Source: a virus
Taxonomy: Duplodnaviria; Heunggongvirae; Uroviricota; Caudoviricetes
IMG/VR virus record: IMGVR_UViG_2534682109_000010
Reading direction: 5' to 3' (one strand)
Length of the DNA: 17,632 nucleotides
Position numbers: made by a program. Below, in pieces: positions 12,001-17,632 of this stretch; the first letter of the stretch is position 1; every line of letters starts with the position of its first letter.

Positions 12001-15000
12001 TTATCACTGCTTCAGAAGTTCACAATGTGATAGCAAAGCCACGTTCCGGCAGCAAATGGCCTGATACAAAAATGTCATACTTCCACACCCTGCTGGCTGA
12101 AGTTTGTACTGGCGTGGCACCGGAAGTTAACGCTAAGTCGCTCGCATGGGGAAAGCAATATGAAGATGATGCCCGTGCCCTCTTTGAATTTATCGCGGAT
12201 GTTACCGTCTCGGAAACACCCATAATTTTTCGTGACGAAAGCATGCGCACCGCCTGCTCTCCCGATGGTTTATGCAGTGACGGTAACGGTCTTGAGCTTA
12301 AATGCCCCTTTACTTCCCGCGACTTCATGAAGTTCCGGCTTGGCGGCTTTGACGCTATCAAGCCTGCTTACATGGCCCAGGTGCAATTCAGCATGTGGGT
12401 TACAGACAAGGACGCCTGGTACTTCGCCAACTACGACCCACGCATGAAGCGTGAAGGCCTGCATTATGTCGTGGTCGAGCGGGATGAAAAGTACATGGCG
12501 AGTTTTGATGAGATGGTGCCGGAGTTCATCGACAAAATGGACGAAGCACTGGCAGAAATTGGTTTTGTATTTGGAGAACAATGGGGGGTTAATAACTAAT
12601 GGATGAAGTGATTTTTACTTATAACGAAGAATCAGCACTGACCGCCGGACAAGGTGGTTTTATTACCGAAACGGGTGCGCATATCATTAACATCACCGAA
12701 GCAGAACTCAAGCAATCAGAAAAAGGTGCCCGATTCATTGAGTTTTCTGGAGAATCCGACGACGGACGGAAAATCCAATATCTCAGTGTTTGTGTTCAGA
12801 AGAATGACGGCACTGAAAATAAATTTGGGGCGAGCATTATTCACGCCATGATGGGATGCACAGGAATTGGGCAGTTAACGCAGCATATGGTTTCCGTCAG
12901 TAAATATGTTGCACCTGAGTTTCACGGAAAGAAAATCGGACTCGTCCTCCAGAAAGTATTAACCACAAACAGAAAGACTGGCGCAGACGGTTACCAGATG
13001 GAAATCCGCATTCCATTCATTGCAGAAACAGGGCAGACACTGAAAGAAAAAGCTGAAGGAAAGAAACCAGAAACTGTAGCAAATATGGTTTCCACTCTCA
13101 AAGACAAAGACAATCGCAGCAAAAACGTAAACCCGAATCACACGGACGCCCCAGGTTACTGGCAGTACGGCAGCGATAGTTTTTAATTCACAAACAAAAC
13201 CAGGCTTTAAATGCAGTAAACAACCGAAGCCTCAATACACTCTCTACACGGAGATATAAATATGAGTCAGCATCAGACAGATGTTAATATTTTCATTAAC
13301 GACCTCGACGGCGGGGTATTTGTTAACAAACTTGGCGCGGTATTAAGTGAAGTTGCCTTTGGCGTAAACAGCACAAACAAAAAAGGAAAGGTATGTGTTG
13401 AATTCGAATTATCTTCACTTGATGAAAATCGCGTATCAGTTTCCCATAAACTAAAATTCACACGCCCGACAATGCGTGGTAGTAAATCAGAAGAAGACAC
13501 AACTAACACCCCGATGTTTGTAAATAAAGGTGGTGAGCTTACTTTGTTCCAGAAAGACCAGGGACAGCTTTTCGATAAACAGGGTCAACATGACGCTGTT
13601 TTACGCTGAATAATCCCCGCCTTAAAACGCTCGCGCATTATCCCCAAATCCATAAATTAAAGGTAAATATACATGTCTCAGTTAGATAGCAATGCCATTA
13701 AAGAAATTGTAAAACTCACCACTACTGCTTTTTCTGGTGAAAATTTGCCGCTTACGGAATGCCCTGTTGCGTTATTGCCGGACAATGTAAATATCGAAAG
13801 TCTGGAACGATTCATGACAGAACGTTTTCGTTTCCGTGGAGTCATGACCACAACCAGTATTGATGACTTTGTTGAATACAGCAAAGGGTATGCCGATGAG
13901 CACTCCCGCTGCTTCATTAACGCGGAAACGATGAAAGCAGTCACTGTGTTCAATATCGGCACTCTGGAGCAACCTGGACACGCTGACAACAAGGCACTGC
14001 TGGAACTGAAAGCCACATCACCATATCGCGCATTGCGTGACGTTGACGGCAAAAAACAACTCCAGAAGTCTCTCGCTGAATGGCTGGAAGACTGGGCCGA
14101 CTTCCTCACAGCCTATGACAGCGACGGTAATGTGCTGGACATCAAACAGGCTATCTCTGCTGTCCGTCGTCTTACCATCGATGCAAAACGCAGTGCTGAA
14201 TATGAAGAGCAAAACTTCAGCGGTAGCCGCTCAGTCATGGAGTCCGTGGAGGCTAAAAGCAAAGAAATCATGCCTGCCACTTTCCGCTTTGAATGCATCC
14301 CATACGAGGGCCTGGGCAACAGGGAATTCACGCTGCGATTAAGCATTCTGACAAGCGAACAGCCTGTTCTGGTGCTACGTATCGTGCGTGTTGAAGCTGC
14401 GGAAGAAGAAATTGCCAAAGAGTTCCGTGACCTGCTGAAAGAGCGTTTCGAAGAAGAAGATATCTTAACCTTCATCGGCACGTTCTCAGTGTGATGAAAT
14501 CTGTGACAGGGACGTCACGACATATCGCTCATATTTCACGAGAAAATACACAGTTCTTGGAGGGTATACTATGCAATTTAAAGATTTACCAGAGGATATT
14601 CAGAAAATAGCTGCGGATACGCTTAAAGCCCATTTATCGGTGCTTGATTTAACAAAGGAACCAAAGGCGAATCTGGAAAATATATCCCGTAACGTGCGAG
14701 ATGTTTTTGTCGGGCTGTATGCTTATGACAATGAAAAGCACGAGGAACATATTCAAAATGGTTGCATTAATAAATTTCAACAAAATATCAAACTTCCTGT
14801 TGCTGATAAAACAGAGCAGAAAACAGATGTATTAGTATTCTGGAATACCGTTGAGGCTATCGCCAGGAGCACGATGTTGGAATTTAACAACATCAATCAT
14901 TCCGGGATCGACACTCATCAATCATCACATCGTGAGGGGTTTTCCATTCTTCTAACTCTGTTACAAGAGCAAGGCGAATATCCTCAGCCGACATCAAACG

Positions 15001-17632
15001 ACACTGAGCAATAGTCCATTCTCGTACGCTGCAACGTGAGGTCGTACCCCGGACACGGGTAAACATCCGGCAATTCCAGCTTACCACCTATTTAACCCCC
15101 TCCCCGTAACGAGACGAAGAAATGAGCACTCATCATGTTGTGAGTTTTTCAGGCGGTCGGACATCGGCGTACCTCGTCCACCTTATGGAGCAACGCAGAA
15201 AAGCTGGTGAAAACGTTCATTACATACTCATGGATACGGGATGTGAACACCCGCTGACGTACCGGTTTATTCGGGAGGTTGTGAAGTTCTGGGATATTCC
15301 GCTAACCGTGTTGCAGGTCGATATAAATCCAGAGCTTGGGCAGCCAAATGGTTATACGGAATGGGAACCAAAGGATATTCAGACGCGAATGCCGGTGCTT
15401 AAACCGTTTATGGACATGGTAAAAAAATATGGCACGCCATACATCGGCGGCGCGTTCTGCACTGACAGATTAAAACTCACCCCCTTCATAAAATACTGCG
15501 ATGACCATTTCGGACAAGGGAACTACATCACGTGGCTGGGTATTCGTGCAGACGAACCCCGTAGGCTGAAACCGAAACCGGGCGTCCGGTATCTTGCCGA
15601 ACTGTCAGATTTTGATAAGTCGGATGTTATCCGGTGGTGGCGAAAACAACCTTTTGATTTGCAAATCCCGGAGCACCTCGGGAACTGTGTTTTCTGCATC
15701 AAAAAGTCAACGCAAAAGCTGGGGCTTGCATGTAAAGACGAACCTGGTCTGATGCGGGTTTTTAATGAACTGGTTACAGGCAAACACGTCAGGGATGGTC
15801 ATCGCAGAACAGGTAAAGACGTTATGTACCGTGGTCACCTGACGCTTGACGGGATTGCCAGGATGTATGCCGACAGCGACTACAGCAATTTGTATCAAGC
15901 GATGGTGCTGGCCAAGCGGTTTGATACTGGTTCGTGTTCCGAATCATGTGAAATCTGGGGTGACCAATTGGAGTTGAAATTCGAAGAGGTAGTGGCATGA
16001 CAATCGTAAAAACCCATACCGGCATTGTGATCACCAAAGACGGCCCGCAGGTAAAAAAACTTCACCAGACAGAGCGGATGTGGGTCGTCGGCAAAAACGA
16101 GTTTTACCACAAAGAAACCGGACGCCGCCACTTTGCAGAAAATACTCGCCGCAGACTGCTGATCGACACAATCAAGCCTGTCGAGGTGAATCATGTTTAA
16201 ACAGAACGAAAAATCTATCGCTCAAATTGCTGAGTATATCCCGCGTACGTGCCGGGGTATGCAGTTGCAGGAAGCCAAAGCGCGCCTGGAGAAAAAAATT
16301 GCGCTCTATATCGATGACGGCTGTGATGCTGCCGTTCTTAACGCGGCTTTCGCACCAGCTCTTAACTGTCATACGCGGGAATCTTTTTTTTCGTGCATCG
16401 CAGCGCAGATCCACAAAGGAGGCAACCAGTGAGCAAAATTAATTACCAGGCACTGCGTGAGGCGGCAGTAGCAATTGAAACAGTAGCAACGCCTCAAAAA
16501 TTGCTGGCATTTCGTATGAAAGCCACACCTCAGGTTGTGCTGGCACTGCTGGATGAACAGGAAAGAAACCAGCAATACATTAAACAGCGCGACCAGGAGA
16601 ACGAGGAGATTGCGCTAACGGTAGGAAAGCTGCGTGTTGAGCTTGAGGAAGTAAAACAACACGCTGAAAAATTATCCGAAACCAAGGCTGTTCGTAACCA
16701 ATGGCGGCCAGATATTTGCCCAATAACCGGACGTACATTTTTCATGTGGATTGAGCATCCAACATTGGGAAATGTGCCGACATATGGTGGCCCATTAGAT
16801 AGTTACACCATTCCAACAAAGGACGGTGACGGTGAGTTTTCATGTGAGCATTACGATCATGATTTTGGCGGTTGGGTAGAAAGCGAATGTCTTGGGTTAT
16901 ATCTGATTGATGATAGAGAACAATGCAGGGTCTACGAACTGGAGGAACGCGTTAAAGAGCTGGAAACGCGGGAAGTTCATTTGCCGACTCGCTACGGCCT
17001 TCGATATGGACATCCGATAAATGATGATGAGCGCCACGTCATGATACCTAAAGAAAATGGCTGCTGGCTTTATCTGGCTGACTTAGAACATGCACTACGT
17101 GTTGCTGGCATTCGCATCAAAGGAGGGTGAGATGGCGTTAACACACCGAGAACTCTGTCAGATTGCGTACAAGTTCCTTAAGCGCAACGGGTTCAAGGTT
17201 TGCTTTCATGACCGCTTTATAGCCGTAACCAGTACCGGAGAACAGCCAGATGCTATGGGATTCAGAAATTCAGCATCATGCCTGATAGAGGCGAAGTGTT
17301 CTCGTGCTGACTTGTTGGCAGATAGAAAAAAGCGTTTCCGTAAAAATCCGTCTCTTGGAATGGGCGACTGGCGATTCTTTATTAGTGAGCCGGGAATTAT
17401 TTCAATTGAGGATTTACCACCTGGCTGGGGATTACTTCACGTTGTTAACGGAAGAGTACGGAAAGTACATGGGTGGCCCAAGGGTAATTGCTGTTGGGGT
17501 AATCCTGACGATAAGCCATTTACTGGAAATAAGCAGGTTGAATGCGATTACATGTTGTCTGCATTAAGGCGCATGGAGTTGAGAGGGCACCTTAATGAAA
17601 TATATGACGGTGTAATTGTTAATAAGAAAGAA

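What the first reader, a model, noticed from the sequence alone, without database searches (positions are those of the whole stretch)
12599..15014. Block of four consecutive ORFs of unknown function between exo and the PAPS-reductase-like gene
Four ORFs (195, 115, 273 and 147 aa), each with a plausible RBS, occupy the early-left operon where lambdoid phages typically carry host-takeover, superinfection-exclusion and anti-defence genes. I recognise no catalytic motifs. The 273-aa protein may be YfdQ/DUF2303-like (from memory), which would suggest a conserved but uncharacterised prophage cassette.
Basis: inference. Interest (0 to 1): 0.45.

Follow-up and report, generated by a model that had tools for sequence, protein, structure and literature searches.

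The report
Stx-phage SSB, YfdP–YfdQ pair, orphan gene
The four genes are real but are not one cassette: the first is a known type of phage single-strand-DNA-binding protein, the middle two are the widespread but still unexplained YfdP–YfdQ phage gene pair, and the last is a fast-evolving E. coli-only orphan.

Summary
The four ORFs exist exactly as described, on the early-left (pL) strand of a Shiga-toxin-converting lambdoid prophage. The block is 99.8–100% identical to phages Ss-VASD, ArgO145 and PA2 and to E. coli O157:H7 chromosomes. It splits into three units.

- **ORF1** is 86% identical to HK620 HkaK, a purified ssDNA-binding protein. It overlaps the exo stop codon (TAATG) and closes the GamL–RecT–Exo–SSB recombination module. 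Its function is known.
- **ORF2 and ORF3** are homologues of E. coli K-12 YfdP (58%) and YfdQ/DUF2303 (52%). A YfdP gene lies directly upstream of the YfdQ gene in 79/80 close and 11/11 distant phage loci. The two proteins co-diverge (r = 0.93). Function is unpublished. K-12 genetics links YfdQ to inhibition of oriC initiation and to prophage activation. A solved homologue (PDB 9o7m, 36 chains) has no paper in the library searched.
- **ORF4** sits where most relatives carry the HD-phosphatase YfdR. It is E. coli-restricted, built of two shuffled modules, weakly constrained (dN/dS 0.36–0.68), and is not NinB.

The claim of four unknowns in one cassette is only partly right. This is a known locus of modest interest; the open question is what YfdP–YfdQ do.

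The parts
10665..10946 (+). GamL (phi80-type RecBCD inhibitor), first gene of the recombination module (context)
   Evidence: NCBIfam NF033500 phi80_GamL, E 1.8e-44, 149.8 bits against a cut-off of 40. phrog_1050 at 1e-48.
10963..11913 (+). RecT-family single-strand annealing protein (context). The start is taken from the Ss-VASD annotation; the longest ORF starts at 10894.
   Evidence: Pfam RecT 2.1e-24. phrog_148 at 1.8e-95. Ss-VASD gp22 coordinates.
11910..12599 (+). Lambda-Exo/YqaJ-family exonuclease (context). Its stop codon overlaps the ORF1 start (TAATG).
   Evidence: Pfam YqaJ 2.5e-28. Sequence AATAACTAATGGATG.
12599..13186 (+). ORF1: HkaK-type ('SSB-2') phage ssDNA-binding protein, last gene of the Rec module. 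Its C-terminal tip is GSDSF, whereas the Sak4-partnered relatives end in D-x-PF.
   Evidence: 86% identity to HK620 HkaK over residues 1-189, E 2e-127. phrog_743 at 1e-68. Biochemistry of HkaK in PMC5928155. Tail comparison. dN/dS 0.09-0.10.
13262..13609 (+). ORF2: YfdP-family protein (phrog_204; homologues carry precomputed Pfam PF27127). Constant upstream partner of YfdQ.
   Evidence: 58% identity to K-12 YfdP, E 6e-49. PF27127 on all homologues. Lies directly upstream of DUF2303 in 79/80 + 11/11 loci. AF2 pLDDT 85.9, one long helix plus three long strands.
13673..14494 (+). ORF3: YfdQ / DUF2303 protein, acidic (pI 4.76), function unpublished.
   Evidence: Pfam PF10065 at 1.6e-65. 52% identity to K-12 YfdQ. 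PDB 9o7m 'YfdQ Protein' at E 4e-44. AF2 pLDDT 77.5. No whole-chain fold neighbour.
14571..15014 (+). ORF4: E. coli-restricted two-module orphan (phrog_1363) in the variable slot downstream of YfdQ.
   Evidence: 19 clusters, all named ones from E. coli. 27 representatives among 1.84 billion. N-module 1-52 and C-module 74-147 occur separately in other proteins. No Pfam, NCBIfam, PADLOC or PDB hit. dN/dS 0.36-0.68.
15122..16000 (+). PAPS-reductase-like gene that bounds the block (context, not part of it).
   Evidence: Pfam PAPS_reduct on residues 5-72 only. phrog_424 at 2e-92. PADLOC SspD at 2.4e-14.

Best explanation
The 2.4-kb block is three independent units placed side by side in the pL operon of an Oslovirus-type Stx-converting prophage. 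(1) ORF1 is the phage's own ssDNA-binding protein of the HK620 HkaK type. By analogy with HkaK it coats the 3' ssDNA that Exo exposes and passes it to the annealing protein, here RecT. This completes a four-function recombination module: GamL blocks RecBCD, Exo resects, SSB coats, RecT anneals. Shown here: homology, gene order and coupling to exo. Inferred: ssDNA binding by this protein and hand-over to RecT through its divergent tail. (2) ORF2 and ORF3 are the YfdP-YfdQ pair, a two-gene module found in early operons of phages, mostly temperate, of Enterobacterales, Vibrio, Xanthomonas/Xylella, Thalassomonas and Psychrobacter. My working mechanism, held at about 0.25 probability, is this: YfdQ, an acidic 31-kDa protein that probably forms a large homo-oligomer, acts with the small helix-plus-sheet protein YfdP early after induction or infection to disturb host chromosome replication or DNA metabolism, and so favours phage development. 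The only shown parts are K-12 overexpression and deletion phenotypes of YfdQ. The oligomer, the YfdP-YfdQ contact and the target are inferred. (3) ORF4 is a lineage-specific, rapidly evolving accessory gene made of two shuffled modules. It occupies the position where most YfdPQ-bearing enterobacterial prophages carry the HD-domain 5'-deoxynucleotidase YfdR. Its role is unknown; an accessory function under changing selection is the likeliest class.
For: Origin: the block is 99.8-99.9% identical to Ss-VASD, ArgO145, PA2 and VT2phi_272 and 100% to E. coli O157:H7 NE 1092-2. It is present at 80% coverage or more in 126 of 5,426 complete E. coli genomes. ORF1: 86% identity to HkaK. HkaK elutes from a sizing column at about 95 kDa (suggesting a tetramer), shifts ssDNA, and stimulates Sak4 annealing and RecA strand exchange (PMC5928155). 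PMC12315714 calls HkaK 'SSB-2', credits TL-2011c with SSB-2 and credits ArgO145 with a complete four-function Rec module; ORF1 is 99% identical to its TL-2011c counterpart and 100% to its ArgO145 counterpart. ORF1 starts on the exo stop codon. GamL-RecT-Exo-SSB co-occur in all 10 loci of this lineage that reach that far, and in none of the other YfdQ loci. ORF2/3: homology to K-12 YfdP and YfdQ. A YfdP gene lies immediately upstream of YfdQ in 79/80 close loci (the exception is cut at the contig end) and in 11/11 distant loci. Pairwise distances of YfdP and YfdQ correlate at r = 0.93 over 81 distinct loci; in the 59 loci that also carry YfdR the values are r(Q,P) 0.80 and r(Q,R) 0.69. Both are under purifying selection, dN/dS 0.07-0.20. 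In ST64B and Psymv2 the pair lies shortly downstream of the cI-like repressor gene. Function leads: multicopy yfdQ plus yfdR plus yfdS or yfdT inhibits oriC initiation, with yfdQ required and yfdP dispensable (PMC4776307). YfdQ overproduction made BW25113(SW1) release plaques, and a yfdQ deletion abolished the phage-dependent demarcation line (bioRxiv 10.1101/413146). PDB 9o7m holds 36 chains of one YfdQ sequence. ORF4: distribution, mosaicism and relaxed constraint. The slot downstream of YfdQ holds YfdR in 62 loci, ORF4 in 9 and other genes in 7.
Confidence: 0.65

Rival explanations
1. The four genes form one co-functioning cassette for host takeover, superinfection exclusion or anti-defence.
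For: They are contiguous, co-oriented and lack convincing internal promoters or terminators. They are inherited together at 97-100% identity in Stx phages.
Against: The units separate freely elsewhere. HkaK-type SSB sits next to Sak4 with no YfdPQ in HK620, HK629, Aeromonas 2_D05 and an Enterobacter phage. YfdPQ occurs without that SSB in about 80 other loci. ORF4 is confined to one lineage and is replaced within it (L005). None of the four hits a PADLOC model.
Confidence: 0.07
2. YfdP-YfdQ is an anti-defence device: a decoy, DNA mimic or sponge for immune signals, made early to protect incoming or induced phage DNA.
Against: There is no sequence or fold match to any known anti-defence protein. 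Strong purifying selection and 28-55% identity across gamma-proteobacterial phages fit a conserved cellular or DNA target better than an arms-race gene. The K-12 phenotypes point to replication.
Confidence: 0.2
3. YfdP-YfdQ act on phage DNA itself as unrecognised recombination or replication-restart accessory factors.
For: In LLS and ST64B the cluster occupies the place of the missing Rec module (PMC12315714). In Xanthomonas phage Alcala it lies between a primosomal gene and recombinase-exonuclease-SSB genes. Here it directly follows the Rec module. Seven YfdQ homologues share invariant R51, R55, H103, Q131, D140, R165, R222 and R236. The K-12 paper cites weak MMS and H2O2 sensitivity of yfdQ deletion mutants.
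Against: The authors of PMC12315714 considered and rejected this because ArgO145, which is this same phage type, has both a full Rec module and the cluster. The protein is net acidic. No fold similarity was found to Rad52/RecT/Erf, Gam/Ku, OB folds or nucleases.
Confidence: 0.15
4. ORF4 is a NinB/Orf-type recombination mediator, as annotated in GenBank AP012534.
For: The record labels the identical gene 'hypothetical protein, NinB homolog'. A recombination mediator would fit next to a Rec module.
Against: BLASTP against HK620 NinB gives E 0.64 over 11 residues. There is no Pfam hit at all, even at E up to 10. A profile search of PDB sequences finds nothing. A separate NinG-type gene lies in the nin region.
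Confidence: 0.02

Closest known systems
HK620 HkaK (SSB_HK620; 'SSB-2' in Casjens/Smith 2025)
   Same: Same length (195 aa) and 86% identity over residues 1-189. Same PHROG family. Same position as the promoter-distal gene of the recombination module, overlapping the upstream gene.
   Different: The partner is RecT plus Exo rather than Sak4. The last six residues, which HkaK needs to recruit Sak4 (NDYPPF), are GSDSF here. The anti-RecBCD gene is GamL rather than Abc2.
E. coli K-12 CPS-53/KpLE1 cluster yfdP-yfdQ-yfdR-yfdS-yfdT
   Same: ORF2 and ORF3 are homologues of YfdP (58%) and YfdQ (52%), in the same order, orientation and spacing.
   Different: YfdR (HD 5'-deoxynucleotidase and DnaA binder), YfdS and YfdT are absent. 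ORF4, which is unrelated, takes the YfdR position. The replication-inhibition phenotype was defined for Q+R+(S or T), so it cannot be transferred directly.
Salmonella phage ST64B sb37-sb36-sb35 and coliphage LLS gp39-gp38-gp37
   Same: The same YfdP-YfdQ pair in the early-left operon of a lambdoid phage (55-58% identity for YfdQ).
   Different: Those phages lack a Rec module and carry the YfdR-type phosphatase. This phage has a complete Rec module and no phosphatase.
PDB 9o7m 'YfdQ Protein'
   Same: Full-length homologue of ORF3 (E 4e-44 with the single sequence, 3e-56 with a profile).
   Different: About 36% identity. Its sequence is almost the same as the homologue in Xanthomonas phage Alcala. 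It was not in the fold library, no publication was found, and its oligomeric state and ligands are unknown to me.
Lambda exo-xis region accessory genes (orf60a, orf63, orf61, orf73, ea22)
   Same: ORF4 shares their genomic niche (between exo and xis/int, early-left transcript), small size and mosaic, variable nature. An Ea22 homologue lies 1.4 kb downstream.
   Different: No sequence similarity of ORF4 to any of them was detected, and no phenotype is known.

Membership tests
HkaK-type phage SSB (phrog_743, 'SSB-2') | Full-length sequence homology to the characterised member, HK620 HkaK | tested here: met
   86% identity, E 2e-127. Both proteins hit phrog_743 (1e-68 and 1.4e-65).
HkaK-type phage SSB (phrog_743, 'SSB-2') | Encoded inside a recombination module next to the annealing protein or exonuclease | tested here: met
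   The start overlaps the exo stop. GamL-RecT-Exo-SSB are linked in 10/10 loci of the lineage that reach that far.
HkaK-type phage SSB (phrog_743, 'SSB-2') | Acidic C-terminal tip ending in PF that recruits the partner recombinase | tested here: not met
   The window protein ends ...YWQYGSDSF. HK620 and HK629 end NDYPPF, Aeromonas DSDLPF and Enterobacter QDDAPF. The terminal Phe and one Asp are kept; the Pro is lost.
HkaK-type phage SSB (phrog_743, 'SSB-2') | Binds ssDNA as an oligomer | not testable with these tools
   Shown only for HkaK (PMC5928155).
HkaK-type phage SSB (phrog_743, 'SSB-2') | Pfam DUF669 membership, as stated by Hutinet et al. | tested here: not met
   hmmscan finds no Pfam family at E up to 10 for ORF1 or for HkaK itself. 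The link in the paper is at HHsearch level.
YfdP family (PF27127 / phrog_204) | Sequence homology to E. coli K-12 YfdP | tested here: met
   58% identity, E 6e-49. phrog_204 at 3.9e-44. All homologues carry precomputed PF27127. That model is absent from the local Pfam copy, so ORF2 itself was not scored against it.
YfdP family (PF27127 / phrog_204) | Gene lies immediately upstream of a DUF2303 gene | tested here: met
   63-nt gap here. The same arrangement holds in 79/80 + 11/11 loci.
YfdQ / DUF2303 (PF10065) | Pfam model above the gathering score over the full length | tested here: met
   221.5 bits against a cut-off of 26.6; residues 27-271 match model positions 24-269 of 269.
YfdQ / DUF2303 (PF10065) | Residues invariant across distant members are present | tested here: met
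   R51, R55, T60, Y69, H103, Q131, D140, R165, S187, R222, S224 and R236 are invariant in 7 sequences of 28-55% identity, including the window protein.
K-12 yfdQRST replication-inhibiting gene set | YfdR (DnaA-binding HD phosphatase) and YfdS or YfdT encoded alongside YfdQ | tested here: not met
   ORF4 against YfdR gives E 63. tblastn of YfdR, YfdS and YfdT finds nothing in the window or in the Ss-VASD stretch at E up to 1e-3.
Lambdoid four-function Rec module (anti-RecBCD, annealing protein, exonuclease, SSB) | All four functions encoded contiguously | tested here: met
   GamL, RecT and YqaJ/Exo and HkaK-type SSB lie contiguously at 10665-13186. This agrees with PMC12315714 on ArgO145.
NinB/Orf recombination mediator (GenBank label for ORF4) | Sequence similarity to NinB (Pfam NinB model or a known NinB) | tested here: not met
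   BLASTP against HK620 NinB gives E 0.64. No Pfam hit.
Known anti-phage defence systems (PADLOC) | Any of the four proteins matches a defence-system model | tested here: not met
   0 families at E up to 0.01 for all four.

The most novel reading that the evidence does not exclude
YfdP-YfdQ is an unrecognised, ancient two-component early module of gamma-proteobacterial phages. It would build a very large acidic assembly that blocks or redirects host chromosome replication, and so raises SOS signalling and prophage induction. In Stx2a phages, including the O104:H4 outbreak type P13374 (YfdQ 100% identical), it would then influence induction and toxin output. ORF4 would be an interchangeable effector that replaces the DnaA-binding YfdR.
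Probability: 0.15. Interest if true: 0.65.

Novelty: already known. Interest (0 to 1): 0.3.

Why it matters
The locus sits in Stx1a- and Stx2a-converting phages of EHEC: 126 of 5,426 complete E. coli genomes carry it. Early-left genes influence induction, and induction drives toxin production. For annotation there are three corrections. RefSeq/PGAP labels ORF1 'hypothetical' in the chromosomes sampled, although a near-identical protein has been purified and shown to bind ssDNA. One GenBank record calls ORF4 a NinB homologue, which is wrong. ORF2 should be named YfdP-family. The real open question is the YfdP-YfdQ pair. It is invariably linked, strongly conserved, found in phages of at least five bacterial orders, and has suggestive replication and prophage-activation phenotypes in K-12. 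It has no informative fold relatives and no published mechanism. A further testable lead is that the SSB tail may be tuned to the partner recombinase (RecT here, Sak4 elsewhere).

Tried and rejected
- **Pfam, NCBIfam and PADLOC scans of the four proteins.** Only DUF2303 passes a cut-off. A sub-threshold ChlamPMP_M hit for ORF2 (20.5 bits against 25) was treated as noise.
- **PDB sequence searches with single sequences and profiles.** Only ORF3 matches anything (9o7m). ORF1, ORF2 and ORF4 have nothing below E 0.1.
- **Fold searches on the AF2 models.**
  - I judged all of these uninformative.
- **Profile-profile comparison of YfdP with YfdQ.** No relationship, probability 0.2%.
- **ORF4 as YfdR or NinB.** Rejected.
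- **Literature.** Searches for DUF2303, YfdQ, YfdP, 9O7M and KplE1/CPS-53 found no functional or structural paper on YfdP or YfdQ beyond those cited.
- **Collecting more distant loci.** A Vibrio query found nothing. Xanthomonas and Psychrobacter queries gave only 7 loci.
- **Promoter/terminator scan.** Promoter-like sites were no more frequent than in shuffled sequence, and none of the terminator-like sites lies in an intergenic gap of the block.
- **Rfam.** No RNA family inside the block.
- **Antisense ORFs within ORF3.** No family hits, so treated as shadow ORFs.

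
Full report
**Observation.** All are on the + strand and start with ATG. Each has a purine-rich Shine-Dalgarno-like motif 7-11 nt upstream. The ORF1 ATG shares a base with the exo stop codon (TAATG).

They are coding genes. Each matches a PHROG family at E 1e-44 to 1e-113. Nei-Gojobori dN/dS against diverged homologues is 0.07-0.20 for ORF1-3 and 0.36-0.68 for ORF4. The long antisense ORFs inside ORF3 match nothing.

**Where the window comes from.** The block is 99.8-99.9% identical to Shigella phage Ss-VASD, Escherichia phages ArgO145, PA2 and VT2phi_272, and many Stx1a- and Stx2a-converting phages (Sepvirinae, Oslovirus). It is 100% identical to a prophage in E. coli O157:H7 NE 1092-2. 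It is present at 80% coverage or more in 126 of 5,426 complete E. coli genomes, always on chromosomes. ORF3 is 100% identical in P13374, the O104:H4 outbreak phage type.

The window map confirms the early-left operon:
- Minus strand: Q, NinG, DUF1367, primase, helicase and Cro.
- Plus strand: cI (S24 peptidase + HTH), a type II R-M pair, Rha/Ant, Kil, GamL, RecT, Exo, the four ORFs, a PAPS-reductase-like gene and Ea22.

The scan found no more promoter-like sites than in shuffled sequence, and no terminator-like site in an intergenic gap of the block. Rfam finds nothing inside it.

**ORF1 is a known kind of protein.**
- PHROGs assigns it to phrog_743, 'single strand DNA binding protein' (1e-68).
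- I tested that label directly. HK620 hkaK, fetched from NC_002730, encodes a protein of the same length that is 86% identical over residues 1-189 (E 2e-127) and falls in the same PHROG.
- Hutinet et al. 2018 purified HkaK. It eluted from a sizing column at about 95 kDa, which they read as a tetramer, and it shifted ssDNA.
- In the same study it blocked spontaneous annealing and stimulated Sak4-mediated annealing and RecA strand exchange. Its last six residues, NDYPPF, were needed to recruit Sak4 (PMC5928155).
- Casjens, Smith and colleagues (Genome Res 2025) call HkaK 'SSB-2'. [quoted passage not shown] ORF1 is 99% identical to its TL-2011c counterpart and 100% to its ArgO145 counterpart.

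ORF1 therefore closes the GamL-RecT-Exo-SSB module rather than opening a block of unknowns. In the IMG/VR loci, these four genes occur together in all ten loci of this lineage that extend that far. They occur in none of the other YfdQ loci.

One real difference exists. SSBs paired with Sak4 end in D-x-PF (HK620, HK629, Aeromonas 2_D05, an Enterobacter phage). ORF1, paired with RecT/Exo, ends in GSDSF. I infer that the tail is tuned to the partner, but the sample is small and this is untested. The paper's DUF669 link is not reproduced by hmmscan for either protein.

**ORF2 and ORF3 are the YfdP-YfdQ pair.**
- ORF3 hits Pfam DUF2303 at 221.5 bits (cut-off 26.6) over nearly its whole length. It is 52% identical to K-12 YfdQ.
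- ORF2 is 58% identical to K-12 YfdP. All its homologues carry the recent Pfam family PF27127.
- The linkage is essentially absolute. Among 80 IMG/VR loci with a YfdQ homologue, a YfdP homologue lies about 400 bp upstream on the same strand in 79. The exception is cut at the contig end.
- A YfdP profile also hits the gene directly upstream of DUF2303 in 11 of 11 more distant loci. These come from Vibrio, Xanthomonas/Xylella, Thalassomonas and Psychrobacter phages, ST64B and two metagenomic contigs.
- Pairwise distances of the two proteins correlate at r = 0.93 over 81 distinct loci. In the 59 loci that also carry YfdR, r(Q,P) is 0.80 and r(Q,R) is 0.69. Shared ancestry inflates such values, so I read this only as 'inherited as a unit'.
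- In ST64B and Psymv2 the pair lies shortly downstream of the cI-like repressor gene.

**What YfdP-YfdQ might do.** No published function exists. PMC12315714 says so explicitly, and argues against a recombination role because ArgO145 has both the cluster and a full Rec module. The experimental leads all come from K-12 CPS-53:
[quoted passage not shown] YfdR is the DnaA binder. YfdQ, YfdS and YfdT showed no strong affinity for YfdR or DnaA. The authors concede a possible overexpression artefact (PMC4776307).
- The same paper cites weak MMS and H2O2 sensitivity of yfdQ deletion mutants.
- YfdQ overproduction caused BW25113(SW1) to release plaques, and deleting yfdQ removed the phage-dependent demarcation line (bioRxiv 10.1101/413146).

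These results fit a protein that perturbs host replication or DNA metabolism and so promotes lytic development. However, this phage has no YfdR, YfdS or YfdT homologue, so the K-12 mechanism cannot simply be transferred.

**Structure.**
- A homologue has been solved: PDB 9o7m, 'YfdQ Protein', with 36 chains of one sequence (E 4e-44; 3e-56 with a profile).
- Its sequence is nearly that of the Xanthomonas phage Alcala homologue (compare).
- It was not found by Foldseek in the fold library, and no paper cites it.
- My AF2 model of ORF3 (pLDDT 77.5) is an alpha/beta protein with a less confident N-terminal 55 residues and a disordered loop at 173-193.
- YfdQ is acidic, pI 4.76. Invariant polar residues across seven distant homologues include R51, R55, H103, Q131, D140, R165, R222 and R236.

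I commit, at about 0.25, to this reading: an early-made YfdQ oligomer with YfdP as partner that interferes with host replication or DNA metabolism. An anti-defence decoy or sponge (about 0.2) and a phage-DNA recombination or replication accessory (about 0.15) are the live rivals.

**ORF4 is a lineage-specific orphan.**
- It has no Pfam, NCBIfam, PADLOC or PDB match, even with a profile.
- Only 19 clusters appear in the 5.8-billion-protein search, and every one that carries a name is from E. coli. Only 27 representatives appear among 1.84 billion proteins.
- Most of those share only residues 1-52. The C-terminal half (74-147) occurs behind entirely different N-termini, so the protein is a two-module mosaic.
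- The GenBank label 'NinB homolog' (AP012534) fails a direct test (E 0.64).
- In the slot just downstream of YfdQ, 62 loci carry a YfdR-type HD phosphatase, 9 carry ORF4 and 7 carry other genes. One sibling locus has a different N-module in front of what appears to be the same C-module.
- Together with dN/dS of 0.36-0.68, this marks a variable accessory slot. The function of ORF4 is unknown.

**Verdict.** The block is a composite, not a cassette:
- One gene has a known function and belongs to the neighbouring recombination module.
- Two genes form a genuinely conserved but unexplained pair that is already noted in the literature.
- One gene is a local orphan.

Nothing here is new as sequence or as family. 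The interest lies in the unresolved YfdP-YfdQ function in medically important Stx phages, and in three annotation corrections.

Noticed in passing
window 6246-7715 and 7712-8665 (+): A complete type II restriction-modification pair lies inside the prophage early-left region between cI and Rha. The methyltransferase hits PADLOC MTase_II at 5e-248 and the endonuclease hits REase_II at 1.6e-168; the two genes overlap by 4 nt. Ss-VASD annotates them the same way.
   Followed up: partly
window 9179-9254 and 9279-9366 (+): Rfam finds isrK (61.7 bits) and C4 antisense RNA (78.9 bits), both above gathering score, just upstream of and overlapping the start of the longest Rha/Ash-type ORF at 9283. This suggests a P1/P7-style c4 RNA control of an antirepressor. 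It also suggests the true start of that gene is downstream of 9283.
   Followed up: no
window 15122-16000 (+): The 'PAPS reductase-like' protein matches Pfam PAPS_reduct only over residues 5-72. Its best PADLOC hit is SspD (2.4e-14, N-terminal 148 aa), with weak DndC and BrxP hits. It may act on DNA or nucleotides rather than in sulfate assimilation. Records disagree on its start: 15122 in Stx2a_F765 and 15185 in Ss-VASD.
   Followed up: no
window 13141-13186 (C-terminus of ORF1): The last six residues of the SSB (GSDSF) differ from the D-x-PF tips of four Sak4-partnered homologues, while the rest of the protein is 79-86% identical to the enterobacterial ones. This may reflect partner-specific tail swapping.
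   Followed up: partly
window 10894-10962 (+): The longest RecT ORF starts at 10894 and overlaps GamL by 53 nt. The Ss-VASD annotation starts RecT at the position equivalent to 10963. The true start was not resolved.
   Followed up: no
protein P0002 (398 aa) and P0189 (166 aa): P0002 fuses 84% of YfdQ (99% identical) to an Ead/Ea22 domain, presumably through a deletion that removes ORF4 and the PAPS-reductase-like gene. P0189 carries both PF27127 and PF10065 in 166 aa, presumably a YfdP-YfdQ deletion fusion.
   Followed up: no
PDB 9o7m versus L085:5007-5828: The solved 'YfdQ Protein' is almost identical in sequence to the homologue of Xanthomonas phage Alcala, not to E. coli YfdQ. The entry holds 36 identical chains, was not retrievable by Foldseek in the fold library, and no paper was found.
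   Followed up: partly
L085:5907-7319 (Xanthomonas phage Alcala): Directly downstream of YfdQ in this phage lies a 470-aa protein with a long, highly charged E/R/A/Q-rich central region. It occupies the slot held by YfdR or ORF4 elsewhere.
   Followed up: no
window 4230-4607 (-) and 10363-10644 (+): Two further genes without Pfam hits: a 125-aa protein matching only the C-terminal part of phrog_1347, and a 93-aa protein (phrog_1635) between Kil and GamL.
   Followed up: no
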